From positions 32,001 to 96,000 of the forward strand of contig JAZDPV010000012.1 in assembly GCA_043797265.1 (NCBI GenBank): DNA of 64,000 nucleotides, in the 5' to 3' direction. Source of the DNA: an archaeon (lineage in GTDB: Archaea > Nanobdellota > Nanobdellia > Pacearchaeales > GW2011-AR1). The notes under the pieces are model-generated. The model did no database searches and was not told the origin of the DNA. It worked only from the letters and a program-made list of their open reading frames with translations. The translations under genes and the position numbers were made by a program. Shown one piece after another: positions 1,280-60,364 of this stretch (position 1 is the first letter of the stretch; each line of letters starts with the position of its first letter).

Positions 1280-1681
1280 TCAGCAACAATACAACTTCTC
1301 TTTATCAACATCCCCTTTTCCAAACGGATTACCAAACTTCCTAACATTCGCAATCATCTCCTCATTCCCCTTCAAACCCCTCCCCCTCAAAACCATCGCC
1401 TCCCGCGCTTTTCTAACAGCGTCGCAAACTTTAATCCCAATCGGACATTTCTCTTCGCACGCCCGACACAAACTGCACTCAAACAAAATCTTGTCCATAA
1501 TCTTGTCCGACAACAAAATCGCCTTCCCCCTCGCCGAAAATTCCTCTTCCTTCAAAACTCCAAACACCGGACACAACCCCTTACATATCCCACACCTCAC
1601 ACATCCCTCAAAAATCTCACTCGCTTCCTCCATTAAATTATCCGCTTCAATTTTTTCCGATTCATTAATCTTTTTTCCCAT
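1280..1681 (-). CDS. 4Fe-4S dicluster protein (GlcF/HdrC-like N-terminal domain)
   Basis: CVRCGICKGLCP and CSLCRACEEKCP motifs; start placed at MGKK after a GGGAG RBS. Confidence 0.8.
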   Translation of the reverse strand: MGKKINESEKIEADNLMEEASEIFEGCVRCGICKGLCPVFGVLKEEEFSARGKAILLSDKIMDKILFECSLCRACEEKCPIGIKVCDAVRKAREAMVLRGRGLKGNEEMIANVRKFGNPFGKGDVDKEKLYCC

Positions 1682-2228
1682 CATAACTCCCAACGCATTT
1701 ATCCAAATCATCCTTCTTTAAAACCAAATATCTAAACGCCCCCGCCCTCAAATCCCGAGAATATCCCCTCGAAATCGAAACACTAATAACTTCTTTCTTA
1801 TGACTCTTAATTAATTTCATCGCCGGAAGAAAATCCGCATCCCCGCTAATCAAAACACAAACATCACAAACCCCATCCAACAAACACAACTTAACCATAT
1901 CCGACGCTATCAAAACATCAATCCCCTTCTCGACCCTAATAACCTTGCCATCAACCTTAATCTTCTTCAAATGAGCAGTGCTAACAACCAATCCTTTCTG
2001 CTTCATCCCCGCCAAAAAAACCATATGCTTGTAATACATCTCCTCTCCCATCTCAATATCCGGAATCGAATTATAATACCTGACCTCAATCAAACTCAAG
2101 CCAAATTTATCACAAACCACTCTCGCAACCTTCCTAACGTCAACAACCCTCGGCTTCCGAAAAACAGTCTTCACATTATGATACCAATTATTCCCATCGA
2201 CAAACACAATCGCTTTTTTATTAACCAT
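1665..2228 (-). CDS. NYN-domain (LabA/DUF88 PIN-like) protein
   Basis: VFVDGNNWYH, EKGIDV, LISGDADF motifs. Confidence 0.88.
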   Translation of the reverse strand: MVNKKAIVFVDGNNWYHNVKTVFRKPRVVDVRKVARVVCDKFGLSLIEVRYYNSIPDIEMGEEMYYKHMVFLAGMKQKGLVVSTAHLKKIKVDGKVIRVEKGIDVLIASDMVKLCLLDGVCDVCVLISGDADFLPAMKLIKSHKKEVISVSISRGYSRDLRAGAFRYLVLKKDDLDKCVGSYDGKKD

Positions 2229-2315
2229 ATTAGAAAAGGTAAAGCCCGGCATTCCTTTCGTCATACCGGGGAGGTAATCCTAAATAAAGCCCTCCAATAT
2301 ATTTAAATCTTTCCA

Positions 2316-2978
2316 TCACAACTCCCCCTCCACTTCCTTAACATACCTCTCAGCAAATTCCTTGACAAAATCGTACCGACCCCAAGCAATCTCTTTTGCC
2401 TTATCGGTCTTGAAAAATTCCGGTCGCAATTTCAAAATCTTTTCATAAATATGATTAATTACCGACGACTTGCTCCCATCATAAACTTCTTTCACTGGTA
2501 TACCCGAATCATAAATCGGAACGCCCCATTCAACTGAAGCCTGAACCATCCTGACAAGAATAGTAGCACCCAATGCGTCCAACCTATCCGCATCCTGCAA
2601 AACCTCTGCCTCACGAGTTTCAGCCCTCAACCCCTTGCTATACCTATGAACTGCAACCGCATGAACAACTTTCCCAATTTTCTCCTCGGGAAAACCCATC
2701 TCTTTCAAAATCACACCAGCCATCCTCGCGCCCTCTTCGGCATGACAAACATTACCTTCATCAGAACTCAAAGCAATTCCTCCTTTTTCTTTTCCCCTGG
2801 CAACATCATGCAAAAGAACAGCCGCCCGAACAACATCCATATCAACATCCTCGCCCTCGCTAATCTTCATAGCTAAATTATAAACTCTCTCAACATGATC
2901 AAACCCATGCCCATCCCCTATCTCAAAATACGGCAACACCCTCTTCCTCAACCTCGCGAAAAATTCCTCATCCATCAT
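2316..2978 (-). CDS. HD-domain phosphohydrolase
   Basis: HGFDHVERV, LLHDV, QDADRLDALG. Confidence 0.9.
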   Translation of the reverse strand: MMDEEFFARLRKRVLPYFEIGDGHGFDHVERVYNLAMKISEGEDVDMDVVRAAVLLHDVARGKEKGGIALSSDEGNVCHAEEGARMAGVILKEMGFPEEKIGKVVHAVAVHRYSKGLRAETREAEVLQDADRLDALGATILVRMVQASVEWGVPIYDSGIPVKEVYDGSKSSVINHIYEKILKLRPEFFKTDKAKEIAWGRYDFVKEFAERYVKEVEGEL

Positions 2979-4120
2979 ATTACTTTATTAATATTAAATT
3001 TATTCAACGGGTCCGTCCTCTTCTTAATATTAATCAAAATTTTCTTATCATTAACGTCGACAAACTCTCTCTTCAAAATCCCAATCCCATGCTCCCCGCT
3101 AATCGACCCGCCCAGCCTCTTAACTAATTTTACCATCTCTGGTATAAACTTTTCTTGCTCTTTACTAAAACAAGGATGAAGTATACCAACTCCAATATGC
3201 CCAAAAACAGGTATACCTCTTTCCTCTACCCACTCAACTAACTTCACAAACCTATCAATAATAATCTTTGGATCCTCAATTCTGGTATAACCCTCCCCCG
3301 CAGCCCACGGATAAACCCTATCTCTCATCTCCATCAACTCATTATACTCCTTTCCATCAACCCATTTCCATTTACTCATCTCAATTTCTCGGCGGCTCCC
3401 GGTCTCGCACTCTACAATCAAATAATAACCTTCGACTAACCCAAGCCCAACGCTAATCTTCTTGTCTAAAAACTCAATCATCGAAACCGCAGAATTCCTT
3501 TTCAAACTCCGAACAACCGAAACAATCTCATCAAGACTTTCAAACTTCACCAACGTTGCGATTCTATTTTTCAACGACGACAACTTCAAACAAGCCCGAA
3601 CAATCACTCCACTAATCCCTTCCATCCCGGCGTAATCACTCAACTCCATCACACCCTTCCGATGAACCTCACCGCTCCCGTCGACAATCTCAACCCACTT
3701 CACCCAATTCGAAGTCCGCCCATACTTTATCGCCCGAGCACCAACAGCGTCGGTAGCAATCATCCCGCCAATCGTCGCAACCGAATGACTCGACGGCTTC
3801 ACCGGAAACTCCAAACCAAATTTCTTCAAATAACCCTGCAACTCATCCAAAATAACTCCCGCCCCAACCTCAACCGTTTTTTTTTCTTTATCAAGCCCGC
3901 CAATCCCATCCATCTTTGACAAATCCAAAACAACATCCAAACCATTCTGTGGAACCGCCCCACCGCTCAACCCCGTCCCGCCCCCGCGAATCACAACCCT
4001 CCTCGCACTCGCAACAATCCTGCAAACCTCCGCGACATTCCTCGGATGCACAACGTCCAACGCCCGCCCCTCAACTCCAGACGCATCCAACTCATAAGCC
4101 CTAATTAAATTTTTATTCAT
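2975..4120 (-). CDS. FAD-linked oxidoreductase (GlcD/D-lactate dehydrogenase-like)
   Basis: RGGGTGLSGGAVP, ATIGGMIAT, SGEHGIG, DPLNKFN. Confidence 0.88.
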   Translation of the reverse strand: MNKNLIRAYELDASGVEGRALDVVHPRNVAEVCRIVASARRVVIRGGGTGLSGGAVPQNGLDVVLDLSKMDGIGGLDKEKKTVEVGAGVILDELQGYLKKFGLEFPVKPSSHSVATIGGMIATDAVGARAIKYGRTSNWVKWVEIVDGSGEVHRKGVMELSDYAGMEGISGVIVRACLKLSSLKNRIATLVKFESLDEIVSVVRSLKRNSAVSMIEFLDKKISVGLGLVEGYYLIVECETGSRREIEMSKWKWVDGKEYNELMEMRDRVYPWAAGEGYTRIEDPKIIIDRFVKLVEWVEERGIPVFGHIGVGILHPCFSKEQEKFIPEMVKLVKRLGGSISGEHGIGILKREFVDVNDKKILINIKKRTDPLNKFNINKVI

Positions 4121-4479
4121 TTCAAGCACCTTATTAAATCATCACGCTTAATAATTTTAAACCTATTTTTCTCCGTCCTTAACTCTTTAGAATAACCCTC
4201 AATCACAGAACAAGAAACGCAATCACGCCCCAATTCCTTTGTTTTAACAATTAACCCATCCTTCCTTAAGATATCAATAAATTTTTTATGCTTCCAAAAA
4301 GATTTGCTATTCTCGCTAGGCACAGAATTATAATATTTAACATAAACCAATTCTAAACCAAAGCCAAAACAAATCAACTTAGCAAGCTTTCTAAAATCAA
4401 TATCCCCTAATCCCTCTAATGCTATCTTGGAATTATGATACCAATTATTCCCATCAATAAAAACAATAGCTCGTTTCAT
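4117..4479 (-). pseudogene. NYN-domain gene with internal in-frame deletion
   Basis: Starts AIVFIDGNNWYH like 1665-2228 but lacks the EKGVD...SGDxDF catalytic segment (120 aa). Confidence 0.65.
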
Positions 4480-4561
4480 AAAAAAAGTGCCTAGCGTTCA
4501 AGACGATAGGCGGTTATTACTTCTACTAACCAACCCCCCTTTTTATATTTTTCTCTTCATC

Positions 4562-4606
4562 CCCCGACACATCCAACTCATAAACCTTCATCAAATTTTT
4601 ATTCAT
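4562..4606 (-). pseudogene. Relic duplicate of the FAD-oxidoreductase 5' end
   Basis: MNKNLMKVYELDVSG vs active MNKNLIRAYELDASG at 4076-4120. Confidence 0.85.
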
Positions 4607-4640
4607 CTTTATCTAATCCCTCCAAATACCTTTCTAAAAA

Positions 4641-4672
4641 ATCCGTGTTAGTCCGTGTTAGTCCGTGTGCTA
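4641..4672 (+). repeat. Decamer tandem repeat (A/G)TCCGTGTTA ending GTCCGTGTGCTA
   Basis: atccgtgtta gtccgtgtta gtccgtgtgcta; same family at 22733 and 44634. Confidence 0.85.
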
Positions 4673-4699
4673 TTATTCTCTCATATAAGTTACACCTCT

Positions 4700-5434: not shown

Positions 5435-5460
5435 ATCAAAACCCTCCTCCACACACACCG

Positions 5461-5553
5461 CGCGACGCGACGAAGCCGCCAAGATATGGCAACGAAGTTG
5501 CCCAAATAGCGAAGCCGTCGAAGATATGAGAGCGAAGCTCTCCAAATTTTCCC
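5461..5553 (+). repeat. GAA-triloop hairpin element, two tandem units
   Basis: gacGAAgccgcc aagatat ggcaacGAAgttgcc caaat agcGAAgccgtc gaagatat gagagcGAAgctctc caaat. Confidence 0.8.
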
Positions 5554-8953: not shown

Positions 8954-9068
8954 CCGCAAACCCGCCCAATTAAACTTATAAACATTTATATCCCAAAATA
9001 CAACAATTCCAAACCACCAATCTTTTAAACCCACAAAAACTTCCAAACTCATATCCCATCTTGTAAAA

Positions 9069-9737
9069 ATGAAAACCCAAACAATCCCAGAAGGAACCTT
9101 TTTTGCAGAATTAGAAAATTCTCAAAAATCTGCAATAAGATACGCTATAGAAAATGGAAAAATTCTCCAAACTCAAATACCAGAAATAGAAAAAAAATAT
9201 CGAAATGGAAATTCACTTAGAGAAATAGTCGAAGAACACGATCTAGAAAATAAATTTGGAGTATGTAAAAAAACAGCAGAAATAATAGTAACTTATGCAC
9301 TAAAAGGATATCATGGAGAATGGAATATGTTTACAAGCCCTTCTTATAATGGATTAATGACAGAAGAAGAATACGCCAAAATAGCAGAAGAACACCACAT
9401 AAAACAAGGAAGAATACTTGGTGAAAAAATAGGACATAAATCCGGCGTACTCACTTTCAGAAAACAAACCGGAGTCCACGGAATGACCTATTTAGAAAAA
9501 CATATAGGAGGACAAAAAGGAATCGTAGCACAAGGACATATTCCATGGTCAAATGATGAAATAAAAACTCTTTACGAATTAGTTCAAGACCCCTTTTATA
9601 AAAGAAAAACTCAAATTCACGCACAAAATATAGCCAAAGAAATAAACAAAAAATTTCATAACGGAAATCCCGTAAGAGATAATACAAGCGTAACAAAAGC
9701 ATTTAATAGATACAAAAACTTCCAAACTCATATCTAA
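9069..9737 (+). CDS. Hypothetical protein, AT-rich, possibly DNA-binding
   Basis: 222-aa ORF with composition unlike the surrounding C-rich genes; no family motif recognised. Confidence 0.6.
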   Translation: MKTQTIPEGTFFAELENSQKSAIRYAIENGKILQTQIPEIEKKYRNGNSLREIVEEHDLENKFGVCKKTAEIIVTYALKGYHGEWNMFTSPSYNGLMTEEEYAKIAEEHHIKQGRILGEKIGHKSGVLTFRKQTGVHGMTYLEKHIGGQKGIVAQGHIPWSNDEIKTLYELVQDPFYKRKTQIHAQNIAKEINKKFHNGNPVRDNTSVTKAFNRYKNFQTHI

Positions 9738-13739: not shown

Positions 13740-14948
13740 ATGGAAGACATCTCAAAAATAGACACAATAAACGTCGGCATAGTCGGCCACATCGACCACG
13801 GCAAAACAACACTCCTCCAAAAACTCTCGGGCAAATGGGCCGACACCCACTCCGAAGAACTCAAACGCGGAATCACAATCAAGCTCGGATACGCCGACGC
13901 AATAATCAAAAAAGACGACGGCAAACTAACGACAAACAAAAACTCAAAAGGAAAACCAATCCGATACATAACATTCGTCGACGCTCCCGGACACGAAATG
14001 CTAATGGCGACAATGCTCTCCGGCGCAGCAATCATGGACGCAGCAATCCTCGTCATCGCAGCGAACGAAGGAATCAAGCCCCAAACACAAGAACACCTCA
14101 TCGCGCTCAAAGCAAAAAAAATCAAAAACATAATCATCGCCCAAAACAAAATCGACCTCATCTCAAAAAAAGAAGCCCTCGAAAATTACAAGACAATCAA
14201 GGAATTCACAAAAGGAACGATCGCAGAAAACGCACCAATAATCCCAATCTCCGCAATACAAGAAATCAATCTCGACAAAATCCTCGACGAACTATGCAAA
14301 ATAAAAATCGAAAAACCAAACACAAATGAAAAACCAATCTTCCTCATCGCTCGAAGCTTCGACATAAACCGACCCGGAACAAAAATAGAAAACCTTCACG
14401 GCGGAATCCTCGGCGGCGCGCTGAAACAAGGAACCCTAAAAATCGGCGACACCCTCGAAATCAAACCCGGTTACTCCTACAAAATCCACAACCAATTCCA
14501 ATACAAAACCATCCAATCAAAAATAATCTCAATGCAAAAAGGCGAACACCAAATAACAAAAGCAACTCCCGGCGGAAGCCTCGCAATCGAAACCGAACTC
14601 GACCCAGCCCTGACAAAAGCCGACTCCATCTCCGGAAGCGTCGCGTCAACAAAAGGAACCCTCCCCGAAATCACGGACAACATCACAATAAAATTCACGC
14701 TCTTCAAAGAAATCTTCGGTACCGGAAAACACGAACCGGTCCAGCCGCTAAAATTCAACGAAATGCTAATGCTAAGTCTCAACACCTCAACCACCGTCGG
14801 ACAAATCACAAAAATAACCAACGAACAACAAACGAATATGACCCTCTCTCTCAAAATCCCAGTCGTCCCACTCAAGGGCGAATCAATCGGCATCGCGCGA
14901 AACATAAACAACCACTGGCGACTAATCGGCTTCGGCGAAATAATATAA
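13740..14948 (+). CDS. eif2g: Translation initiation factor aIF2 gamma subunit
   Basis: GHIDHGKTT, EELKRGITIKLGYA, DAPGHE, QNKID, RSFDINRPG, WRLIGFG. Confidence 0.96.
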   Translation: MEDISKIDTINVGIVGHIDHGKTTLLQKLSGKWADTHSEELKRGITIKLGYADAIIKKDDGKLTTNKNSKGKPIRYITFVDAPGHEMLMATMLSGAAIMDAAILVIAANEGIKPQTQEHLIALKAKKIKNIIIAQNKIDLISKKEALENYKTIKEFTKGTIAENAPIIPISAIQEINLDKILDELCKIKIEKPNTNEKPIFLIARSFDINRPGTKIENLHGGILGGALKQGTLKIGDTLEIKPGYSYKIHNQFQYKTIQSKIISMQKGEHQITKATPGGSLAIETELDPALTKADSISGSVASTKGTLPEITDNITIKFTLFKEIFGTGKHEPVQPLKFNEMLMLSLNTSTTVGQITKITNEQQTNMTLSLKIPVVPLKGESIGIARNINNHWRLIGFGEII

Positions 14949-15004: not shown

Positions 15005-15235
15005 ATGCAACTATCGAATTCAGAACATTGGTCCAAAAAACGAAAATACAGAAAAGATATAACTAACGATATAATCGAATATGCTATAAACAACTCAAAC
15101 GAACTCAAAGATAAATTTTGGGAAGATGCTCTAAACGCAATTTGCAGGATTCCACCCTCGGGAAGAATCTTAAAAGTTGTATACAAGAAAGAAAAATCAA
15201 ACAATAAAATAATAACCGCCTTTTGGCTTGATTAA
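15005..15235 (+). CDS. Putative toxin (BrnT/DUF4258-like small RNase fold)
   Basis: 76 aa, GRILKVVYK...KIITAF C-terminus; upstream of a DUF2283-like gene. Confidence 0.6.
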   Translation: MQLSNSEHWSKKRKYRKDITNDIIEYAINNSNELKDKFWEDALNAICRIPPSGRILKVVYKKEKSNNKIITAFWLD

Positions 15236-15236
15236 A

Positions 15237-15431
15237 ATGGAAGAATGGTATGATAAAGAAGAAGACATCATGAACATCGAACTAACCAGCGGAGACTATT
15301 GGAAAAGTATAGAACTCCCAAATGGAATAGTAATAGATATAGACAAAAACGGAAAAATCAAAAGCATAGAAATTCTCAAAGCCAGTAAAATATTCTCCGG
15401 AGACGTCAAAAAAGTAATAGGACTGGCTTAA
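15237..15431 (+). CDS. DUF2283-like putative antitoxin
   Basis: YDKEEDIMNI...IVIDIDKNGKIKSIEILKAS. Confidence 0.75.
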   Translation: MEEWYDKEEDIMNIELTSGDYWKSIELPNGIVIDIDKNGKIKSIEILKASKIFSGDVKKVIGLA

Positions 15432-15436: not shown

Positions 15437-15461
15437 AATCGGCTTCGGCGAAATTATTTAA
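15437..15461 (+). pseudogene. Relic duplicate of aIF2-gamma 3' end (IGFGEII*)
   Basis: aatcggcttcggcgaaattatttaa vs aatcggcttcggcgaaataatataa at 14924-14948. Confidence 0.85.
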
Positions 15462-18678: not shown

Positions 18679-18959
18679 AATTTTTTCTCGCAATATTTTC
18701 CTACAAAAATTCCTACAAAAACAAAAATTAAAATTAATAACAAAGAATAAACAAAAAATCCTATTATCCCAGTATTTCCAAAAAAAGGCAGACAGCCTAA
18801 GAAAAAAATAGGATAAAAAATAAAAGCTACCCAAGAATCTATTTTAAATGGACAACTATATCCAACAAATCCTAATGCAATAGAATAATAAATTCCTATA
18901 AGAACATAAATCCCTCCAACTCCCCCCCCAATCAAACCACCTTTCCAAGCCCTCTCCAT
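18675..18959 (-). CDS. Small membrane protein
   Basis: WKGGLIGGGVG, three hydrophobic segments. Confidence 0.55.
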   Translation of the reverse strand: MERAWKGGLIGGGVGGIYVLIGIYYSIALGFVGYSCPFKIDSWVAFIFYPIFFLGCLPFFGNTGIIGFFVYSLLLILIFVFVGIFVGKYCEKKL

Positions 18960-19015
18960 CCAACCTAAACAAAACCAAACTATTTAAAATCTCCTAAAAA
19001 TTATTCTCCAAATAT

Positions 19016-21937: not shown

Positions 21938-22023
21938 CACACTCCCTCACACCATTCACATTTCCCACTCGGACACTCCCCCTCCAACAACTCCAACGCC
22001 CCCCTCCAAACCTTCTCCTCCAT
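21937..22023 (-). pseudogene. Relic duplicate of the PD-(D/E)XK gene 3' end
   Basis: MEEKVWRGALELLEGECPSGKCEWCEGV* vs active AEDEWKSAIKLLNSDCPTKSCEWCEGR*. Confidence 0.8.
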
Positions 22024-22679
22024 CATCTCCCCTCGCACCACTCACACGATTTAGTTGGACAATCAGAGTTTAATAATTTTATTGCACTCTTCCATTCATC
22101 CTCTGCAACTTCAACATCAACCTTCATCTTCACCAACTCGCTATCAAAAATAACTTCTCCCGTCGACAAAACTTCCTTCGGCACATAAAACAAAAGAAAA
22201 AAATAATCCTCCGTCTCGTAGCCGTTCTTCCTCAAAAGAAAATTATAAACATTCTGTTGCAATCTATAATGCTCCGCCGTGTCGTCTTTGACCGCATAAC
22301 CCCTCGTCTTGTAATCCAACACAATCAACTTCTTCCCTTTCATCAAAATATTATCAACCGCCCCGTGCAACTCATTCCCATTCTTGTCCGTCCACGAAAT
22401 CCCCTTAAAATTATTCTGCCAAACCTTCATCTTCTCCGAATCATCAAACAACTTCATATCCTCGCAATGACAATTGTCGCACAACTCCGGCGGCAACAAC
22501 CCCTTGTCCCGAAACTTGTCAAAATGAATTTTCAAAATTCTATCCATCCCCGACGGCAGCGACGGAAAAACTCCGCTCGGCCGCTTCCAAACTTTATGTT
22601 GCGTCAGCCAAAAGCATCTCGGACACTCCTTAAACAAATTCAAAACCGACGGCGACAACTTATATCCCATTCCAAACAA
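22023..22679 (-). CDS. PD-(D/E)XK nuclease (AddB/Cas4-like, Fe-S ligands)
   Basis: LSPS..ECPRCFW, GAVD..LDYKT, QQNVY, C-terminal CEWC. Confidence 0.82.
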   Translation of the reverse strand: MFGMGYKLSPSVLNLFKECPRCFWLTQHKVWKRPSGVFPSLPSGMDRILKIHFDKFRDKGLLPPELCDNCHCEDMKLFDDSEKMKVWQNNFKGISWTDKNGNELHGAVDNILMKGKKLIVLDYKTRGYAVKDDTAEHYRLQQNVYNFLLRKNGYETEDYFFLLFYVPKEVLSTGEVIFDSELVKMKVDVEVAEDEWKSAIKLLNSDCPTKSCEWCEGR

Positions 22680-22732: not shown

Positions 22733-22765
22733 TCCTGCGTTAGTCCTGCGTTAGTCCGCGTGCTA
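22733..22765 (+). repeat. 10/11-mer tandem repeat ending GTCCGCGTGCTA
   Basis: tcctgcgttag tcctgcgttag tccgcgtgcta immediately downstream of the gyrA stop. Confidence 0.8.
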
Positions 22766-40813: not shown

Positions 40814-41620
40814 ATGATAGTCAAAGAGGAATTTTTAAGTCGGCTAAGAAAAATATTCGACCTAAATCTCTACGAGGTAAAGGTTTGGACAGCACTCCTA
40901 TCCAGAGGAACCTCGACAGCCGGCGAACTCTCATCAATCTCCGACGTCCCGCGCTCCCGAACATACGACATCCTGGAGTCCCTCGAGAAAAAAGGATTCA
41001 TCGTGATGAAACTCGGCAAGCCAATAAAATTCGTCGCGCTAAAACCAGAAGAAGTAATTGAACGGGTAAAAAAGAATCTCGTGATAACCGCAAGAGAAAA
41101 ATCAAAAATTTTAGAAAAACTAAAAGGCAACGATGTTCTCGAAGAATTAAAAAGTTTATTCACAGACGGAATTAAATACATTGAACCTACCGACCTGTCT
41201 GGCGCGCTCAAAGGACGACAAAATATTTACAACCATTTGGACATGCTCGTCAGGGAAGCACAAAACGCAATCACGCTCGTGACAACCGCAGACGGACTAA
41301 GCCGAAAACTTGAAATCCTCTTGCCGTCATTGGAAAAAGCAAAAAAGCGAGGCGTAACAATTCGAATCGCCGCACCAATCACCGAAGACAACAAGCAAGT
41401 CGCAAAAGATTTTGCAAAAGTAGCCGAAGTCCGAAATGTCGAATCACTCCGGGCACGATTCATGATAATCGACAGCGAACAACTAATGTTCATGCTTCTA
41501 AACGACGAAGACGTCCACCCAACTTACGATTTGGGAGTATGGCTAAACACAAAATTTTTCGCCCAAGCCCTCGAACAACTTTTCGAAATCGCCTGGAACA
41601 ATTTTAAGCAAGTTAAATAG
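40814..41620 (+). CDS. TrmB-family transcriptional regulator / chromatin protein
   Basis: LNLYEVKVWTALL..STAGELS..SDVPRSRTYDILESLEKKGF. Confidence 0.9.
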   Translation: MIVKEEFLSRLRKIFDLNLYEVKVWTALLSRGTSTAGELSSISDVPRSRTYDILESLEKKGFIVMKLGKPIKFVALKPEEVIERVKKNLVITAREKSKILEKLKGNDVLEELKSLFTDGIKYIEPTDLSGALKGRQNIYNHLDMLVREAQNAITLVTTADGLSRKLEILLPSLEKAKKRGVTIRIAAPITEDNKQVAKDFAKVAEVRNVESLRARFMIIDSEQLMFMLLNDEDVHPTYDLGVWLNTKFFAQALEQLFEIAWNNFKQVK

Positions 41621-41699: not shown

Positions 41700-42212
41700 A
41701 TGAAATTCATATTTAAAAATAATAATCCGCAACCCCAAGAAAAAGAAATACCATTAATTTGGGAAAAAAATGAACCAAAAATTATTAAAAATATTTATCA
41801 AATAACGGGCTTAAAATTAAAAACAAACAAAATAATTTGTACAATCGATAATTCAACTTCTCACGGACTTTATGGATACAAAAATATAACACTTGGAATA
41901 AAAGGAGGAATCACTAAAGACGATATACTTATGGTAATTACCCATGAACTTTTTCATATTTTTTATTGGGGAAAAATTAGAAAAATAAAATTATCAAAAG
42001 GGTTCCTCGGCAAAGAAACAAAAAAAGAATGGGAACTCGCAGAAATAACCGCCTTTTTTATAACAAGCGAACCAAAACTAAAAAAATTTTGGCCAAATGC
42101 AAAAGTATATCTTTACCCTGAGACCAAAGAACTATATAAAAAAGTAAAAAGATTTTGGAAGAAAAAAGATTTTGAATATTTTTTGAAAAATTCATATAAG
42201 CAAGTCAAATAA
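41700..42212 (+). CDS. AT-rich hypothetical protein with HEXXH zincin motif
   Basis: VITHELFH, later E (WELAE); ends KQVK* like trmB. Confidence 0.65.
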   Translation: MKFIFKNNNPQPQEKEIPLIWEKNEPKIIKNIYQITGLKLKTNKIICTIDNSTSHGLYGYKNITLGIKGGITKDDILMVITHELFHIFYWGKIRKIKLSKGFLGKETKKEWELAEITAFFITSEPKLKKFWPNAKVYLYPETKELYKKVKRFWKKKDFEYFLKNSYKQVK

Positions 42213-44004: not shown

Positions 44005-45882
44005 TTAAAAAATCGCCCAATGATTTTTTAATTTCTGCTCCCTGTCCAAAACACTCCCCCTCTTGTTAATCCTCGGCCTCCCACTCTCTTTATCTTTTCT
44101 CAAAGTAATATCCAAACTTTTCAACAATTCACCAACCCCATCTTCAAAATTCCTAACCTCACTCGCCTCACAAACCCCAACTCTTTTCTTTAATTCGTGT
44201 TCATTCGTGTTCATTCGTGAGCCCTTACTTTCTCCGTCCATCCGCGAGCCGACCTCAGAAAAATTAATAATCAAATCCGCCAAATACGAAACCAACAACA
44301 AATCGTGCTCGACGACAAACGCCGTCTTTCCCCTCTCGACCATCACATCCTTAATCGCCTTCGCAACCAAAATCCTCTCCTCAACATCCAGATAAGCCGA
44401 CGGCTCGTCCAAAAAATAAACATCCGCGTCCTTCGCCAAACATCTCGCAACGCTAAATCTCTGCAACTCCCCGCCAGACAATTCCCTCAATTTCTTCCCA
44501 ACCAAAACCCCAAGATTAAACACCGACGACAATTTCTTATTTATCTTCTCCCTAAAAACAATATCCCGAACAAACTCCTCGCTCTCGCTAAACAAATACT
44601 GCGACTTATAAGAAATATCCAAACCTAAATCAAGTCCGTGTTTGTCCGTGTTTGTCCGTGTGCTATTTTTCTTACCACCAAGTCGTTCAGATATCTCCAC
44701 ATCACAAGAACAATTTTCATCGAGCTCGCCCACCAGCGCCCGCACAAATGACGTCTTCCCCGTTCCATTCTTTCCCAAAATCCCAATCACATGATTCTCC
44801 CTAATTTCCCCACCCTTCACATTTAACTCAAACCCCGAATCAAATCTCAAATTAAAATCAGGCCACTCCCCGATTTTTCCCCCAGACACCGACGCATTTT
44901 TCGTAAAATTAAAATTCAATTCCTTATCCCGAATCAATAAATTCTCCTCTTTCAAAAATCCCTTCAGATAAGCATTAACACCTTCCCTCGAACTCTTGAC
45001 CCCACTCACCGTCCCGAAAACTCCCTGCGCCCCATAAAACACATTTAAATAATCCGTCAAATAATCCAGCACCAACAAATCATGCTCGACGACAATCACC
45101 GTCTTATCTCGACCAATCTCCTTGATAAAATCCGAAACTCTCAATCTCTCTCCAATATCCAAAAACGCCAACGGCTCGTCGAAAAAATAAATATCAGCGT
45201 CGCCCAAACTCGCCGCCAAAATCGCAACTCTCTGCAACTCACCACCGCTAAGCTTGTCCATCCTATTCCCCAAAATATTCTCGACATTCAACTTCTTCGC
45301 TAATTCCCTAATTTCTTTTTTGTCCCCACGATTCTCCAACAACTCCATCACACCAATGTCCTTCGCCAACACCGACAAATTCTGCGGCTTATACGAAACC
45401 TTCTTGTCTCCAAGTAAATCAAAATATTTCTGCAACTCACTCCCCTTGAATTTCCCAACATCAATTTCTATATTTCCAGACAAAATTTTTACAGCAGTCG
45501 ATTTCCCAATCCCATTCCTCCCGAGCAAACCCAAAACTTTCCCAACCTTAGGAATAGGCAAACCATACAACGCAAACCCATTCGCCCCATATCGATAAAC
45601 CAAATCTTCCTCACTCACCGACGGCAAATTCACAATATCAATCGCACCCAACGGACATCGCTTCACACAAATCGCGCACCCAACACAACTTTTCTCATCA
45701 ATAACACACTTGCCCGATGAAGGTGGCACCTTGGTGCCCTCTATAGAGGGTATGCCGCGTGCGGCGCTACCAATAACGACGCAACTATCAGACTCCTTCT
45801 TCTCAACCGGACAATATTTCTTACACTCGCGCCCGCACACCGTCGGCTTACATTTCTCCCGATGAACAATCGCCAATCTCAT
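44005..45882 (-). CDS. rli: Ribosome recycling ATPase ABCE1/RLI
   Basis: N-terminal Fe-S motifs (CKKYCP; CVGCAICVKRCP), two ABC domains (GRNGIGKST, GKNGTGKT, LSGGELQR). Confidence 0.94.
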   Translation of the reverse strand: MRLAIVHREKCKPTVCGRECKKYCPVEKKESDSCVVIGSAARGIPSIEGTKVPPSSGKCVIDEKSCVGCAICVKRCPLGAIDIVNLPSVSEEDLVYRYGANGFALYGLPIPKVGKVLGLLGRNGIGKSTAVKILSGNIEIDVGKFKGSELQKYFDLLGDKKVSYKPQNLSVLAKDIGVMELLENRGDKKEIRELAKKLNVENILGNRMDKLSGGELQRVAILAASLGDADIYFFDEPLAFLDIGERLRVSDFIKEIGRDKTVIVVEHDLLVLDYLTDYLNVFYGAQGVFGTVSGVKSSREGVNAYLKGFLKEENLLIRDKELNFNFTKNASVSGGKIGEWPDFNLRFDSGFELNVKGGEIRENHVIGILGKNGTGKTSFVRALVGELDENCSCDVEISERLGGKKNSTRTNTDKHGLDLGLDISYKSQYLFSESEEFVRDIVFREKINKKLSSVFNLGVLVGKKLRELSGGELQRFSVARCLAKDADVYFLDEPSAYLDVEERILVAKAIKDVMVERGKTAFVVEHDLLLVSYLADLIINFSEVGSRMDGESKGSRMNTNEHELKKRVGVCEASEVRNFEDGVGELLKSLDITLRKDKESGRPRINKRGSVLDREQKLKNHWAIF

Positions 45883-45916
45883 AAAAATAAATAGAATCAT
45901 TCAGTTTTAAGTTTAC

Positions 45917-46246
45917 CTAAATCTCTATCCCCGTTTCAACCGCTTCTCTCACAATCGTAACCTGATTTTTCAATCTGTCAAATTCTTCAGGAGTATAACA
46001 CAAAAAATCAACCGGAAGCCCAATATCCGTTTTCAAATGCCATTCCAAATACAAATCCGGCGACCTCTTGAACGAACTCACTCCTTCAAACTTTTTACTT
46101 ACTATTATCAAATCTACATCACTATCCTCGTGTGGTTTCCCCGACGCCCTGCTTCCAAAAAAAATAATTTTCTCAGCACCATACTTTTTAGAAATTTTAT
46201 TCTTAAACCTCTTTAATTTTTTTATCAAAGATTCTTTTTTACCCAT
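45917..46246 (-). CDS. MNT (minimal nucleotidyltransferase) antitoxin
   Basis: FFGSRASG..EDSDVDLIIVS, CYTPEEF. Confidence 0.88.
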   Translation of the reverse strand: MGKKESLIKKLKRFKNKISKKYGAEKIIFFGSRASGKPHEDSDVDLIIVSKKFEGVSSFKRSPDLYLEWHLKTDIGLPVDFLCYTPEEFDRLKNQVTIVREAVETGIEI

Positions 46247-46596
46247 TTCAAAACCTCCTCGGCAAACTCAACAATTTTATTACACTCCTCCGCAGAATAA
46301 ACTCCTCCATTGTCCGGGTATCTAATTGCAGTATAAACCGGATTTATCAAAGAACATAATTTTATTATTTCACTCGGCGCACCTGCCAATTTAGCAAGCT
46401 CAATCAAATCATGAATTTTAGGAAACTGACTACTCTTCTTTATTAAAATTGCCTTAAACGCTTTCTCTGCAGACTGTTGAGCAAAAAACACCGCAGCATC
46501 AAGCATACTGCCATCCAAATTGTACTTAGCAATCTTCATATCGCTATCGGACTTTTCAATCCACTTCCGAAAACTTTCATCTTCTTGCCATACCAT
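46225..46596 (-). CDS. HEPN-domain toxin
   Basis: FFAQQSAEKAFKA, KIHDL, IRYPD. Confidence 0.88.
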   Translation of the reverse strand: MVWQEDESFRKWIEKSDSDMKIAKYNLDGSMLDAAVFFAQQSAEKAFKAILIKKSSQFPKIHDLIELAKLAGAPSEIIKLCSLINPVYTAIRYPDNGGVYSAEECNKIVEFAEEVLKWVKKNL

Positions 46597-46630: not shown

Positions 46631-46687
46631 TTACAACCCACACGCCGCCAGCTTACATTCCTCCTTATGAACAATCGCTAACTTCAT
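46631..46687 (-). pseudogene. Relic duplicate of the ABCE1 5' end
   Basis: MKLAIVHKEECKLAACGL* vs active MRLAIVHREKCKPTVCG. Confidence 0.88.
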
Positions 46688-46732
46688 AAAAAGCAAACAA
46701 AAAATAATTTTATAAACCCACCAACACCCCAA

Positions 46733-46775: not shown

Positions 46776-46804
46776 GCTCCTATCCCAAAATTGCCCCCTC
46801 AATT

Positions 46805-46838
46805 CCTAACAGCTAATAGCTAATAGCTAATAGCTAAC
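46805..46838 (+). repeat. Heptamer tandem repeat GCTAATA
   Basis: cctaaca gctaata gctaata gctaata gctaac. Confidence 0.88.
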
Positions 46839-52436: not shown

Positions 52437-52512
52437 AGCGGGGTAGAGCAGCCTGGTCAGCTCGCGAGGCCCATAACCTCGAGGTCACGTGGTTCAAATC
52501 CCGTCCCCGCTA
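52437..52512 (+). tRNA. tRNA-Met(CAT), probably initiator (A1:U72)
   Basis: AGCGGGG/CCCCGCT acceptor, CGAGG-CCCATAA-CCTCG, GGTTCAAATCC. Confidence 0.88.
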
Positions 52513-52726
52513 TTGATTTGAAACACGTGACTCACGTGGCGAGTCGATTCGCTTTGAGCAAAACTAAATCTTAAAAATTTTGCGAAATGCAAATCGCGAG
52601 TAAAATCCCGTCCCCGCTATTGATTTGAAACACGTGACTCACGTGGCGAGTCGATTCGCTTTGAGCAAAACTAAATCTTAAAAATTTTGCGAAATGCAAA
52701 TCGCGAGTAAAATCCCGTCCCCGCTA
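52513..52726 (+). mobile_element. tRNA T-arm-associated element, two identical tandem 107-bp units
   Basis: Units 52513-52619 and 52620-52726, each ending in the tRNA 3' end aaatcccgtccccgcta; core homologous to 47189-47255. Confidence 0.85.
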
Positions 52727-56906: not shown

Positions 56907-56945
56907 GAAAAAAATCCTCAAAAAAACAAAAGAGGAAAATTAAAA

Positions 56946-58178: not shown

Positions 58179-58306
58179 CCTAATTTAGTTAAACTCTCAA
58201 CAAATAAAAGCTATTTAAACCTTAGCATTGTCGTAATTTCAAAAGGACAAAAAGATTTAAATAGTATACCAACGTATACCAAATATCGTAAATCAGAGTA
58301 ACAAAA

Positions 58307-58570
58307 ATGACAATTAAAAAAATACCAGCCGGAAAAATCACAACCATAAAACTTTTGGACGAAACAAAACTCCGAATCGAAAAACTCCGACAAAACAAGG
58401 GCGAATCCTACGACGACATTCTAAGAAAAATTCTCTACATCTTAAACACCGCCCGAGACGAACCCGACAAGGCAAAACGAATCCTTGAAAGAATTTCTGA
58501 ACTTCGAAACCGAATGCTCGAAGAAGAAAGACAACAAAAAGAAGATCTAAAGAAAGAAAATGGAAAATAA
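58307..58570 (+). CDS. Small RHH-like DNA-binding protein
   Basis: ITTIKLLDETKLRIEKL...ESYDDILRKI. Confidence 0.65.
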   Translation: MTIKKIPAGKITTIKLLDETKLRIEKLRQNKGESYDDILRKILYILNTARDEPDKAKRILERISELRNRMLEEERQQKEDLKKENGK

Positions 58571-58957
58571 TAATGAAAAAAGAAAACCCCTTTAATAAAA
58601 AATCCAAAAAATAACAGAAGAAAGAACTACTCAAGAATTTAAAGAATATATCGTCGGAGGAACTATATACTTTTATACTCTTCTAACATATCCTCACGAA
58701 ATATCTCTTAAAGAAGCAAAAAACTAGAAAAACTATGTGACGAAAATGGATTTTTTCATGAACAAAAAATTATTCCAAATACCCCCCTTGCCGAAATCTA
58801 CGATACATCTTTAAAGACGATATGAACAATAAAAATTCCTATAGCCTTAATCATTACAAAAGATTAGGAAAACCAAAAATCATAAAAAATACAAAAAAGA
58901 AATTTGTATTTTAGAATCTATCTTTCAATAATCCGCCTTCTTCCTATAACCTATCCT

Positions 58958-59746
58958 CTATTGTCTATTAACTAATTCCCACTCTCTCATCCCAACAACC
59001 GAATCCACAACAGCGTCGGGACTTTCGCAAATCAAAACAATATCCTTATCTAAATCCCTAAGAAAATCAAGCAACTTTCTCCACTCAGACAAAGGCGTCA
59101 CCAAATGTTTCTTCTCCCCCTTCTCACCAAACTCAATCCCAGAAAAATGCACATGCCAATTCTTCAACTTAAACTCGTCCCTAATTTTATCAAACTCATA
59201 CTTTCCATAACGAGCCAACACATGCGCAATATCAATACAAACCCCACATCCTGTCTCGCGAACCAACCGACCAACCTCATCAATCGAACCAAAAACATTC
59301 ACCTTCCCCATCACCTCCGGACACAACTCAACATCCCATTTATTTTCCTTCACAACTTTCATCATCTCAATTATTTCCCCCGCAATTTTATTCCCAACTT
59401 CCTCCGAACTCATACCAGTATAAAACCCCGGATGAAAAACAACTCGCTTCGCCCCAAGCCACGACGCGACCTCGCAACATTTCAAAATCCTCGTCTTCGA
59501 CATCTCAACTTTTTTCTCGTCCTTCGAATTTAAATTAACCCAATACGGCGCATGCACCGACAAAAAAATCCCCAACCTCTCCGCGACCCTCCCAATTTTC
59601 ACCGCGTCCTCTTTCTCTTTAATATAAACCCCATAAGTAAACAAAACCTCCGCCGCTCGAAATCCCAACTTGTGATACATTTCCAAATTCGCAACCGCGT
59701 CACCAACCGGACCAATCCCCGTCGGTCCAAACTTTATTTTCGACAT
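58958..59746 (-). CDS. nfo: Endonuclease IV (AP endonuclease 2 family)
   Basis: SVHAPYWVNL, VFHPG, PEVMGK..FGS, DIAH, HVHFSGI, CESP. Confidence 0.88.
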   Translation of the reverse strand: MSKIKFGPTGIGPVGDAVANLEMYHKLGFRAAEVLFTYGVYIKEKEDAVKIGRVAERLGIFLSVHAPYWVNLNSKDEKKVEMSKTRILKCCEVASWLGAKRVVFHPGFYTGMSSEEVGNKIAGEIIEMMKVVKENKWDVELCPEVMGKVNVFGSIDEVGRLVRETGCGVCIDIAHVLARYGKYEFDKIRDEFKLKNWHVHFSGIEFGEKGEKKHLVTPLSEWRKLLDFLRDLDKDIVLICESPDAVVDSVVGMREWELVNRQ

Positions 59747-59809
59747 ATAACAAAAACAATAAGCAACAATTTAAATTTATCCATCTTCCTTAAAAATTAA
59801 AACCCATAA

Positions 59810-60067
59810 TTAATTATAAACATTGTCCCTCTTGTCAATTTTCACCACGACAATTCTTTTCTCTTCGTAGTTCACACGATAAAGCACTCGATACTTCCCA
59901 ATCCTTATTCTAAACGTCGGCAATTCATATCCTAAAACTCTTTTAGCATTATGCGGAACGGGATTTTGTTTCAAAATTTCAAGTTTCTCAGAAATTCTCT
60001 CAAAAAGTTTATTTTCACACCGAGAAAGAAAATATTCAGACTGCTTATCAACTTTTATTTCGAACAT
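59810..60067 (-). CDS. RelE/ParE-family toxin
   Basis: LKQNP..FRIRIGKYRVLY..VVKIDKRDNVY. Confidence 0.88.
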   Translation of the reverse strand: MFEIKVDKQSEYFLSRCENKLFERISEKLEILKQNPVPHNAKRVLGYELPTFRIRIGKYRVLYRVNYEEKRIVVVKIDKRDNVYN

Positions 60068-60242
60068 CTCTAATTTCCTCTAAAGAAACCAAATTCCCAG
60101 ATTTCTCGTTTCTCACACTCTCGTCAAGCATTCTTCTTTCTTCTTCAGTCACAATAACATCTGCATCAACCATGTTCTCCTGTATACATTTCAAAATCTT
60201 CTCAATCCTATCTAATCTAATATCTATATTTTGCTGCTCCAT
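60048..60242 (-). CDS. Cognate antitoxin (RelB-like)
   Basis: Acidic small ORF upstream of and overlapping relE; TEEE..LDES..GNLVSLEEI. Confidence 0.7.
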   Translation of the reverse strand: MEQQNIDIRLDRIEKILKCIQENMVDADVIVTEEERRMLDESVRNEKSGNLVSLEEIRDVRNKS

Positions 60243-60313
60243 AAACAATCAACACTTCATGCCTATATAAAATTTTCTGAAACATCATCCTACAAAAGCA
60301 AATTTAAACCTTC

Positions 60314-60364
60314 CGCGTCACCAACCGACCCAATCCCCGTCGGCCCAAACTTTATTTTAGACAT
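60314..60364 (-). pseudogene. Relic duplicate of the endonuclease IV 5' end
   Basis: MSKIKFGPTGIGSVGDA vs active MSKIKFGPTGIGPVGDA (4 mismatches in 51 nt). Confidence 0.9.

What the first reader, a model, noticed from the sequence alone, without database searches (positions are those of the whole stretch)
1665..60364. Recurrent 'gene-end duplication' cassettes: accessory genes enter at gene termini with a recoded copy of the terminus
Seen: seven sites share one architecture, in which a diverged duplicate of the neighbouring gene's start or end brackets a cargo. They are NYN at the HD/Fe-S junction (14 nt), NYN at the FAD-oxidoreductase start (15 codons), BrnT-like/DUF2283 at the aIF2-gamma end (25 nt), the HEXXH ORF at the trmB end (16 nt), HEPN/MNT at the ABCE1 start (17 codons), the RelE pair at the endo IV start (17 codons), and a cargo-less one at the PD-(D/E)XK end (28 codons). 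The copies differ by synonymous or conservative changes, so they are alleles rather than exact target-site duplications. No integrase or transposase is present in the window. Inference: DNA from related strains integrates by homologous recombination on one side and an illegitimate junction on the other, leaving the old terminus as a relic. This would be an integrase-free route that hitches TA modules to conserved genes.
Basis: partly seen in the sequence, partly recalled or inferred. Interest (0 to 1): 0.85.

Follow-up and report, generated by a model that had tools for sequence, protein, structure and literature searches.

The report
Cassette insertions with duplicated gene ends
In this tiny uncultured archaeon, small accessory genes (toxin-antitoxin pairs and nuclease-like genes) sit exactly at the starts or ends of core genes, and each is flanked by two copies of that gene boundary, one working and one a leftover; bacteria and fungal mitochondria show the same kind of insertion scar, but here it is unusually frequent.

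Summary

The window holds two more such sites, and the pattern is genome-wide. A strict automated screen found 23 terminus-plus-relic pairs in 625 kb, against 1 in a distance-shifted control. Cargo is mostly NYN genes (6 of 6 NYN genes above the Pfam cut-off), GxxExxY nucleases and TA pairs.

Differences between copies fall mostly on third codon positions. However, young events have perfect repeats (23/23, 24/24, 42/42). Some copies co-evolve within a genome. At one site the vertical/foreign roles may be reversed, on weak evidence. The genome also encodes three tyrosine recombinases outside the window.

The closest known cases are 'insertion with long target duplication' of bacterial restriction-modification genes and fungal mitochondrial endonuclease ORFs that bring a foreign gene end. 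This scan had already noted two such cassettes elsewhere in this genome. Verdict: a new variant of a known kind.

The parts
59695..59785 (-). Site A, working copy: conserved promoter plus the first 17 codons of endonuclease IV (gene 58958-59746)
   Evidence: The promoter motif is shared with 9 of the 11 relatives' loci.
60313..60403 (-). Site A, relic copy: degenerate promoter plus 17 codons of the endonuclease IV start, running into a 24-codon dead-end ORF
   Evidence: It matches relative G023 at 3 of the 4 sites where the copies differ.
59810..60248 (-). Site A cargo: ParE/RelE-family toxin (59810-60067) and an overlapping upstream small ORF (60048-60248, the antitoxin position), with their own TATA-like promoter
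   Evidence: Pfam ParE_toxin, 36 bits against a 23-bit cut-off. Sequence seen. Absent from 11 of 11 relatives' loci.
45832..45887 (-). Site B, working copy: ABCE1 start (ATG at 45882) with the genus-wide promoter motif upstream
46634..46692 (-). Site B, relic copy: ABCE1 start, 18 codons then a stop. Homology continues to about codon 22 across a small deletion.
45917..46596 (-). Site B cargo: HEPN (46225-46596) and MNT nucleotidyltransferase (45917-46246)
   Evidence: Pfam HEPN 93.9 bits and NTP_transf_2 47.6 bits. None of 29 relatives has this cassette. G043 has a different MNT-HEPN pair at the same spot.
4071..4120 (-). Site C, working copy: start of the FAD-linked oxidase (gene 2975-4129, ATG at 4120)
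4557..4606 (-). Site C, relic copy of the oxidase start (15-16 codons)
4117..4479 (-). Site C cargo: truncated NYN gene whose stop overlaps the oxidase start codon
   Evidence: Pfam NYN, E = 6.6e-4, profile positions 1-67 of 145. The CCG-domain and oxidase genes are adjacent in 10 of 10 relatives.
14924..14948 (+). Site D, working end of aIF2-gamma (last 7 codons plus stop)
15437..15461 (+). Site D, relic end of aIF2-gamma. It lies next to the promoter of the conserved downstream gene.
   Evidence: The downstream gene follows aIF2-gamma directly in 26 of 29 relatives.
15005..15431 (+). Site D cargo: DUF4258-like (15005-15235) and DUF2283 (15228-15431) pair
   Evidence: Pfam DUF2283 at 51.9 bits. 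DUF4258 is weak, 19 bits against a 25-bit cut-off. Absent from 29 of 29 relatives' loci.
41605..41620 (+). Site E, working end of the TrmB-family regulator gene (40814-41620)
41700..42212 (+). Its last 5 codons and stop (42197-42212) are the relic of the regulator's end, abutting the ArgRS end.
   Evidence: The site is empty in G023 and G061.
2291..2308 (-). Site F, first copy of the Fe-S gene's promoter and ribosome-binding stretch, now in front of the NYN gene
   Evidence: compared with the empty junction of G054.
1677..1703 (-). Site F, second copy of that stretch. It lies inside the NYN 3' end, in front of the Fe-S gene start.
1665..2264 (-). Site F cargo: NYN gene. This is an old insertion, present between the HD and Fe-S genes in 7 relatives.
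   Evidence: Pfam NYN 56.8 bits..
22023..22106 (-). Site G, working end of the PD-(D/E)XK gene (22023-22679), of foreign type
21941..22025 (-). Site G, relic end of the PD-(D/E)XK gene, of the vertical (G023) type. It overlaps the start of the low-GC type IIG restriction-modification gene (19016-21940).
9033..9055 (+).
9069..9737 (+). Extra site cargo: 222-aa ORF of no known family. Its last codons lie in the second repeat copy (9712-9734).
52496..52726 (+). Extra site: the last 17 nt of a tRNA gene (52437-52512) occur three times, separated by two identical 90-nt spacers
   Evidence: (D3).

Best explanation
These are scars of recombinational insertion that used no recombinase carried by the cassette.

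A piece of DNA from a related genome, either a small cassette or just a replacement gene end, is joined into a resident gene's first or last codons or its adjoining control region. A stretch spanning the gene boundary (14-150 nt) then ends up on both sides of the insert. The copy next to the gene body keeps the gene whole. The outer copy is a dead relic.

In a genome this compact, only insertions that duplicate the boundary leave both neighbours intact, so these are the ones that survive.

I commit to the following route. One end pairs by homology in the resident gene. The other end joins illegitimately or by template switching, as in homology-facilitated illegitimate recombination. Afterwards the flanked cassette spreads among relatives by ordinary homologous recombination, which mixes vertical and foreign copies.

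Later changes are gene conversion between the two copies, decay of the cargo, and finally a cargo-less pair of ends.

Shown: the duplications, the empty sites, the allele types at G, the perfect young repeats, and cargo decay. Inferred: the joining chemistry and the role of selection.
For: **More than chance**
- Local direct repeats scoring 18 or more number 222 within 3 kb, against 12 and 7 at 10-13 kb and 20-23 kb.
- The strict terminus-plus-relic class numbers 23 against 1 in the control. That automated list includes some tandem paralogs and misses some clear sites.

**Empty sites in relatives**
- Sites A-F all have an empty state in related genomes.

**No site-specific machinery**
- Repeat length varies from 14 to about 150 nt, and I saw no shared core motif at the junctions.
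- No recombinase family was found in any cargo scanned.

**Allele origin**
- At G the relic is 60/74 identical to G023 and the working end is foreign, in a mosaic gene.
- The ABCE1 relic carries residues A15 and L18, a combination seen only in G061 among the 29 relatives.
- Differences between copies show third-position bias, 29/25/59, p = 1e-4.

**Cargo decay**
- A 45-aa NYN stump lies between repeats at C1:21000. G056 has an intact NYN at the same host gene start.

**Recurrence in independent assemblies**
- 8 of 22 testable NYN loci in relatives have significant flanking repeats (z of 9 to 50).
- G044 has a cargo-less relic of the ABCE1 start.
- G051, G013, G052, G024 and G050 have repeated aIF2-gamma ends.

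**Precedent**
- Furuta et al. 2010 (PMC2853133, passages read) report long, variable target duplications that often span start or stop sites. Most of their cases are in naturally competent species.
Against: - Perfect repeats at the youngest events fit an on-the-spot target duplication by an unknown enzyme just as well.
- The same NYN family sits at many different host genes. The founding insertion at each gene therefore cannot have used homology to that gene on the cargo side.
- Several cargo ORFs end inside the downstream repeat copy. This regularity is not predicted by random illegitimate joins.
- No donor genome and no junction microhomology could be examined.
- The codon-position bias is also expected, more weakly, if only the working copy stays under selection.
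- Two sampled relatives show a lower density: 2 in 200 kb of G062 and 1 in 180 kb of G034. Something specific to this lineage is left unexplained.
Confidence: 0.5

Rival explanations
1. Transposition-like insertion. An unknown enzyme acting in trans makes widely staggered cuts, or a replication fork switches template, so that a perfect target duplication is made on the spot. All later differences come from decay of the relic, drift of the working copy, and recombination with relatives.
For: - Repeats are perfect or near-perfect at four events: 23/23, 24/24, 42/42 and 54/55.
- One NYN family sits at many unrelated host genes with the same geometry. The upstream copy ends 87-141 nt before the NYN start in 7 of the 8 flanked relatives' loci, and the downstream copy starts within about 70 nt after the NYN end in those same 7.
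- Cargo-less tandem copies exist in G051, G024 and G050 and at the window's tRNA end.
Against: - At site G the relic is clearly the G023-type allele and the working end is not.
- The ABCE1 relic shares residues A15 and L18 with G061, the only one of 29 relatives with both.
- No transposase family was found. A search for the TnpB family gave 0 hits, and no such family appeared among the window ORFs.
- Repeat lengths from 14 to about 150 nt fit no known transposase.
Confidence: 0.25
2. Homing-like spread driven by the cargo's own nuclease (NYN, GxxExxY/PD-(D/E)XK, HNH). The model is the fungal mitochondrial endonuclease ORFs that insert near a gene end together with a foreign copy of that end and leave the native end as a relic.
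For: - The architecture is the same as in Glomus and Allomyces mitochondria (PMC3630166, passages read).
- Cargo is rich in nuclease folds: 6 of 6 NYN genes above the Pfam cut-off, 3 GxxExxY genes and 1 HNH gene sit between such repeats.
- At site G the working end is foreign and the relic native.
Against: - Many cargoes are RNase-type toxin-antitoxin pairs (ParE/RelE, HEPN/MNT, HicAB, PIN) or carry no nuclease (dUTPase, the 222-aa ORF).
- Sites with no cargo exist.
- No DNA cleavage is known for this NYN family (recalled, not from a call).
- The 3 other intact GxxExxY genes are not flanked in this way; one of them instead forms a paralog pair with a broken copy.
Confidence: 0.12
3. Site-specific integration by a tyrosine recombinase acting in trans, of Xer or integron type, on small circular cassettes.
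For: - The genome has two XerA-type recombinases (235.8 and 231.4 bits against a 220-bit cut-off) and a third divergent one about 30 kb upstream of the window.
- Integrons are reported in archaeal metagenome genomes (PMC9668308, abstract read).
- One NYN cassette subfamily has a conserved hairpin.
Against: - Both XerA-type proteins score below the integron-integrase cut-off: 195 and 187 bits against 265.
- The cassettes are scattered singly at unrelated genes, not in an array next to an integrase.
- I saw no shared core at the junctions.
- The hairpin lies inside the cassette's 5' leader, downstream of its promoter, not at a cassette end.
Confidence: 0.08
4. Artefact or chance: strain-chimeric assembly joins, or chance matches in a G-poor, low-complexity strand.
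For: - The genome is a metagenome assembly in 18 contigs.
- One strand is very G-poor, which raises chance matches.
Against: - Distance-shifted controls on the same strand give 12 and 7 repeats against 222, and 1 terminus-plus-relic pair against 23.
- The same architecture appears in independent assemblies of at least 10 other species.
- Relics sit exactly at gene boundaries, with promoters and stops in place.
Confidence: 0.03

Closest known systems
Insertion with long target duplication of restriction-modification genes (Nobusato et al. 2000, recalled via the reference list; Furuta et al. 2010, PMC2853133, passages read)
   Same: - Small gene units with no mobility gene of their own.
- Flanked by long direct repeats of variable length that are single-copy at the empty site of a relative.
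- The repeats often span a translation start or stop, so the target gene stays intact.
- The mechanism is unknown.
   Different: - Described for restriction-modification genes in bacteria. No archaeal case passed that paper's screen.
- Here the cargo is NYN, GxxExxY and toxin-antitoxin genes.
- The density is about one per 25 kb.
- Many repeat pairs are diverged like alleles.
- Some repeats are shorter than that paper's 30-bp threshold.
Fungal mitochondrial mobile endonuclease ORFs with an inserted foreign C-terminus and a native C-terminal relic (Allomyces atp6; Glomus atp6, atp9, cox2, nad3; PMC3630166, passages read)
   Same: - The order is gene core, then a foreign working end, then the mobile ORF, then the native end as an unexpressed relic.
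- The native end clusters with close relatives and the inserted end does not. This is what I see at site G.
   Different: - There the cargo is a LAGLIDADG or GIY-YIG homing endonuclease, reported in that paper as shown to drive mobility.
- Here most cargoes are not known DNA endonucleases.
- Gene starts are hit as often as gene ends.
- Some sites have no cargo.
Homology-facilitated illegitimate recombination and sequential displacement of effector-immunity modules (PMC3240628 and PMC5361080, search listing and abstract starts only)
   Same: One homologous anchor and one non-homologous join bring in foreign DNA next to a conserved gene. Displaced remnants are left behind.
   Different: This was shown in naturally transformable bacteria. 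The junction microhomology that defines it could not be examined here. It does not explain first-time insertion of the same cassette at new genes.
Integron gene cassettes, including the archaeal integrons of Ghaly et al. 2022 (PMC9668308, abstract read)
   Same: Small, promoter-poor or single-gene cassettes, often toxin-antitoxin genes, that are gained and lost.
   Different: There is no integron integrase above cut-off, no array and no attC-type site at cassette ends. Each cassette sits alone at a different core gene and is flanked by that gene's own boundary.

Membership tests
Insertion with long target duplication (Kobayashi group) | Direct repeats flank the insert, are long (over 30 bp in Furuta 2010) and vary in length | tested here: met
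   Sites A, B and C have 91, 56 and 50 nt, and other genome sites reach 148 nt. Sites D, E and F (25, 16 and about 18-27 nt) fall below the 30-bp threshold.
Insertion with long target duplication (Kobayashi group) | The repeated stretch is single-copy at an empty site in a related genome | tested here: met
   A: 11 of 11 loci. C: 10 of 10. D: 29 of 29. E: G023 and G061. F: G054.
Insertion with long target duplication (Kobayashi group) | No transposase or integrase in or beside the insert | tested here: met
   Pfam scans of 63 window ORFs and 21 cargo ORFs found no such family.
Insertion with long target duplication (Kobayashi group) | The cargo is a restriction-modification unit | tested here: not met
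   The cargo is NYN, PDDEXK_3, ParE, HEPN/MNT, HicAB, PIN, DUF2283, HNH or dUTPase. The type IIG gene at 19016-21940 lies beside a relic but not between two clear copies.
Integron cassette | Integron integrase next to an attI site and an array of cassettes, each ending in a folded attC site | tested here: not met
   The best tyrosine recombinases score 195 and 187 bits against the 265-bit integron-integrase cut-off, and they lie on other contigs. The cassettes are solitary.
DNA transposon or insertion sequence | Transposase, terminal inverted repeats, and a short target duplication of fixed length | tested here: not met
   The TnpB-family search gave 0 hits. Duplications range from 14 to about 150 nt. 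I did not scan cassette ends specifically for inverted repeats.
Integrase-borne integrative element at a gene end | The element carries its own tyrosine or serine recombinase, and the att sites share an identical core | tested here: not met
   No recombinase was found in any cargo. I saw no shared core across sites.
Homing endonuclease ORF with a foreign gene terminus (fungal mitochondrial type) | The working terminus is foreign and the relic is native | tested here: inconclusive
   Met at G and compatible at A and B. Possibly the reverse at C12:4232, on one residue. The copies cannot be told apart at the perfect repeats.
Homing endonuclease ORF with a foreign gene terminus (fungal mitochondrial type) | The cargo encodes a DNA endonuclease that cuts the empty site | not testable with these tools
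   Only fold families are known (NYN, PD-(D/E)XK, HNH). Cleavage needs a bench assay.
Homology-facilitated illegitimate recombination | One crossover lies in homology and the other join lies at a 3-10 nt microhomology | not testable with these tools
   No donor sequence was found. The best NYN homologue of the youngest cassette is 65% identical.
Type II toxin-antitoxin modules (the cargo at A, B, D) | Two small adjacent or overlapping genes, one from a known toxin family | tested here: met
   ParE_toxin, HEPN plus NTP_transf_2, and DUF2283 are above the Pfam cut-offs. DUF4258 is below its cut-off. Toxicity was not tested.

The most novel reading that the evidence does not exclude
The NYN cassettes are a new family of self-contained mobile elements of DPANN archaea. 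Each has its own promoter, a 5' leader hairpin that is kept through compensatory base changes, and a PIN-like nuclease gene that has no stop codon of its own. These elements would seek out the first codons of host genes. They would duplicate the gene start, so that the host promoter reads into them and the host gene is re-started behind them. They would move without any integrase, with the NYN protein or the hairpin doing the targeting.
Probability: 0.15. Interest if true: 0.8.

Novelty: new variant of a known kind. Interest (0 to 1): 0.6.

Why it matters
How very small, host-dependent archaea with few or no classical mobile elements gain accessory genes is poorly understood.

This genome carries a dense, readable record of one route. 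It holds dozens of single-gene insertions placed exactly at gene boundaries, each with an internal control (the relic) that preserves an earlier or foreign allele. The record supplies dated events, from perfect repeats to decayed ones. It also supplies empty sites in sister species, and cases where the working gene end is demonstrably foreign.

If the route is general, three things follow:
- Core genes of such organisms are mosaics at their tips.
- Toxin-antitoxin and nuclease genes become wired into the operons of essential genes.
- The unexplained 'long target duplication' of bacterial restriction-modification genes gains a much larger set of examples on which a mechanism can be tested.

Tried and rejected
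- **Reads across junctions.** The only public runs found hold the organism as short, low-depth contigs (share 0.11 or less). Laying them gave no joints and no piece spanning a relic and its cargo, so neither assembly correctness nor empty alleles in the population could be tested.
- **Crossover in ABCE1.** A sliding-window comparison of ABCE1 with 18 relatives, meant to find a crossover behind the working start, was uninformative. The first 40 codons are 76-82% identical to many relatives. The script then stopped on a variable region.
- **Third PD-(D/E)XK end behind the restriction-modification gene.** I found only a gapped match of score 17 in G-rich sequence (18919-18962). I rejected it as not distinguishable from a composition effect.
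- **NYN remains in cargo-less spacers.** A strict scan for the NYN leader hairpin found it only at the two known cassettes of that subfamily.
- **Rfam.** A search of five NYN loci for the leader hairpin gave no match at E up to 1.
- **First automated codon-position count.** It mis-assigned several genes, so I replaced it with a curated list.
- **Nearest-neighbour comparison at C12:4232.** Identities differ by only about 5 nt out of 118, too few to place the relic by DNA. Only the residue pattern hints at its origin.

Full report
**Setting.** The window is bases 32001-96000 of contig 12 of a 624,983-base assembly in 18 contigs. Its genes are archaeal: aIF2-gamma, aIF5B-type IF-2, ABCE1, Kae1, L7Ae, S6e, deoxyhypusine synthase. 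Genes are tightly packed, and many stops and starts abut or overlap.

**The seven sites.** The repeat finder recovered three of them directly.
- Endonuclease IV start: 59695-59785 against 60313-60403, 78% of 91 nt.
- ABCE1 start: 45832-45887 against 46637-46692, 82% of 56 nt.
- FAD-oxidase start: 4071-4120 against 4557-4606, 84% of 50 nt.

Reading the sequence confirmed the same anatomy at each. Going in the direction of the host gene, the order is:
1. a relic with a start codon and 15-18 codons of the host gene, running into a stop;
2. at sites A and B, a TATA-like box of the cassette's own;
3. the cargo;
4. the working start.

At the aIF2-gamma end the last 7 codons and the stop recur after the DUF4258/DUF2283 pair, 23 of 25 nt identical. 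At the TrmB-family gene the last codons and the stop recur as the end of the 170-aa cargo ORF. At the PD-(D/E)XK gene a second, diverged end follows the stop directly.

**Chance.**
- Direct repeats within 3 kb that score 18 or more number 222. On the same strands at 10-13 kb and 20-23 kb there are 12 and 7. These controls cover roughly three quarters and just over half as many position pairs, by my own estimate from the contig lengths.
- A stricter automated class requires one copy to overlap the terminus of an ORF of at least 100 aa and the other copy to lie outside it on the terminal side. This class counts 23 against 1. The list includes a few tandem paralogs and misses several clear cases, ABCE1 among them, so it is a rough lower bound.
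- The two short matches are weak on their own. For site E, 16 of 252,405 random ORF pairs are as alike over the 16 nt ending in the stop, so about 0.03 would be expected among 466 adjacent pairs; one is seen.
- For site F, a 14-mer with one mismatch is common.

**Relatives show the empty state.** The genus holds 48 other species genomes in the collection.
- Site A: none of 11 loci has anything but a membrane-protein gene directly before endonuclease IV. In 9 of the 11 a conserved promoter motif lies before it, and in G000 that motif lies with the working copy.
- Site B: none of 29 loci has this HEPN/MNT pair. G043 has a different MNT-HEPN pair at the same spot. G044 has a 24-codon relic 50 nt before the working start, with no cargo.
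- Site C: the CCG-domain and oxidase genes are adjacent in 10 of 10 loci.
- Site D: the cassette is absent from 29 of 29 loci, and the conserved downstream gene follows aIF2-gamma in 26 of 29.
- Site E: in G023 and G061 the regulator's stop abuts the ArgRS end, just as the relic does in G000. The cargo ORF has a partial homologue in only 1 of 23 loci.
- Site F: the NYN gene lies between the HD and Fe-S genes in 7 relatives. G054, G012 and G047 lack it there. The empty junction of G054 shows that the duplicated piece is the Fe-S gene's promoter and ribosome-binding stretch. One copy now precedes the NYN gene. The other lies inside the NYN 3' end.

**More sites.**
- In the window, a perfect 23-nt repeat flanks a 222-aa ORF upstream of the CTP synthase gene.
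- Also in the window, the last 17 nt of a tRNA gene occur three times around two identical 90-nt spacers.
- Elsewhere in the genome, a perfect 42-nt copy of the [NiFe]-hydrogenase large-subunit start flanks a NYN cassette.
- A 54/55 repeat flanks a GxxExxY gene, and a perfect 24-nt repeat flanks an HNH gene.

**Cargo families.** All are Pfam matches above cut-off (plus for the window): NYN, PDDEXK_3, ParE, HicA/HicB, PIN, DUF2283, HNH, dUTPase and HIT.
- All 6 NYN genes above the Pfam cut-off lie in such cassettes. Five were found by the screen and site F by comparison.
- 3 of the 6 intact GxxExxY genes do so.

**Are the copies alleles?** Over 10 curated sites, the 113 differences fall 29/25/59 on codon positions 1/2/3 of the working frame (p = 1e-4 against an even spread). 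There are 38 synonymous and 46 non-synonymous changed codons, and no relic has a stop in the aligned part. This is more coding-like than free decay of a dead copy. A weaker bias of the same kind would arise if only the working copy stayed under selection.

The clearest case is site G.
- The gene's 5' half is most like G023 at the DNA level (73-81% in the first windows, against 62-77% for the others).
- Its last ~50 codons are only 52% like G023 but 61-68% like G051, G049, G043 and G045.
- The relic is 60/74 identical to G023.

The ABCE1 relic shares residues A15 and L18 with G061; among the 29 relatives only G061 has both. The endonuclease IV relic matches G023 at 3 of the 4 differing sites, which is not significant alone.

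**Results against a single simple story.**
- The youngest events have perfect repeats.
- At C12:4232 the working copy shares one residue (R29) with G056 and G061, while the relic is one residue from the genus consensus. This hints that here the relic is the foreign or ancestral allele. The DNA identities cannot confirm it.
- At C15:4692 the relic also exists in G056 at the same spacing, yet both copies in each genome share that genome's own residues.
- I saw the same pattern by eye at the host gene shared with G056, from the sequences printed. I ran no count on it.
- These last two cases point to gene conversion between the copies, or to repeated events at hot spots.
- One NYN family sits at many unrelated host genes with a fixed geometry. 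The first insertion at each gene therefore cannot have relied on homology on the cargo side.

**Recombinases.** No cargo encodes one. The genome has two XerA-type proteins and a third, divergent tyrosine recombinase on the window's own contig, about 30 kb upstream. A search for the TnpB family found nothing. I saw no shared sequence at the cassette junctions that I read.

**Density in relatives.** The same screen gave 2 pairs in 200 kb of G062 (same genus) and 1 in 180 kb of G034 (another family), against 23 in 625 kb here. These are small samples of two genomes. Even so, the architecture recurs in relatives:
- 8 of 22 testable NYN loci are flanked by significant repeats;
- several species have repeated aIF2-gamma ends.

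**What is known.**
- Furuta et al. 2010 (passages read) describe 'insertion with long target duplication' of restriction-modification genes in bacteria. The repeats are long and variable, often span a start or stop, and come with no mobility gene. Most cases are in competent species, no archaeal case passed their screen, and the mechanism is open.
- Beaudet et al. 2013 (passages read) describe fungal mitochondrial endonuclease ORFs that bring a foreign gene end and leave the native end as a relic.
- My searches found no report of this pattern for toxin-antitoxin or NYN genes or in DPANN archaea. Those searches cover only the held library.
- This scan had already noted two such cassettes on other contigs of this genome.

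**Verdict.** The proposed mechanism is right for at least one site and plausible for others, but it cannot be the whole account. I file it as a new variant of a known kind.

Noticed in passing
whole window; all 18 contigs: Extreme strand asymmetry. GC skew runs from -0.17 to -0.57 in every 2-kb bin of the window, whichever way the genes point, and |skew| is 0.29-0.53 on all contigs. Loci of G056, G023 and G061 share it (mean 0.44-0.47). G049, G012 and G013 do not (0.08-0.17).
   Followed up: partly
window 4640-4670, 22735-22765, 46800-46835; G000:C16:36440-36490; C15:1-28: Short tandem repeats of period 7, 10 or 11 lie directly after stop codons. Each unit contains a stop triplet, so two or three units put a stop in all three frames. 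I saw this by eye. Their function is unknown.
   Followed up: no
L157-L179 and G000:C16:36603-36627, C1:21145-21169: One NYN cassette subfamily has a conserved hairpin 5-65 nt before the NYN start. It has a 9-10 bp stem and a loop of mostly 4 nt. The stem is kept through compensatory changes, with several different pair types at one position. A hairpin was found in 24 of 26 leaders, including all 20 leaders of this subfamily. There is no Rfam match.
   Followed up: partly
window 37841-38521 and 38611-40731: The isoleucyl-tRNA synthetase-like gene is in two ORFs. They match the class I synthetase profile at positions 2-182 and 184-413, with 89 nt between them. This could be a split gene, a frameshift or another boundary insertion.
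   Followed up: no
window 18000-22000: A low-GC island (0.23-0.38 in 250-nt bins from 18251 to 21750, against about 0.42 for the genome) holds a 974-aa type IIG restriction-modification gene of the Eco57I/MmeI type. Its start overlaps the relic of the PD-(D/E)XK end. In G045 and G051 the PD-(D/E)XK homologue lies directly before a C5 DNA methyltransferase-like gene, and in G049 one lies nearby; I recognised these by motif only and ran no family scan on them.
   Followed up: partly
L083 (G051), L076 (G013), L077 (G052), L084 (G024), L085 (G050), just after the aIF2-gamma stop: The gene's last codons plus about 40 nt downstream recur one to two more times, in tandem in G051, G024 and G050, with no cargo. 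In G051 the outermost copy carries the allele that is widespread in the genus (read by eye).
   Followed up: no
G000:C1:25950-26792 and C18:84853-85677: Two XerA-type tyrosine recombinases are both above the NCBIfam equivalog cut-off, in a 625-kb genome. A third, divergent one lies at C12:513-1544.
   Followed up: partly
window 60389-60538: A 49-aa ORF with no family match lies between the membrane-protein gene and the endonuclease IV relic. The 11 relatives have nothing there. Its last codons overlap the degenerate promoter of the relic, so it may be a second, older insertion at the same boundary.
   Followed up: partly
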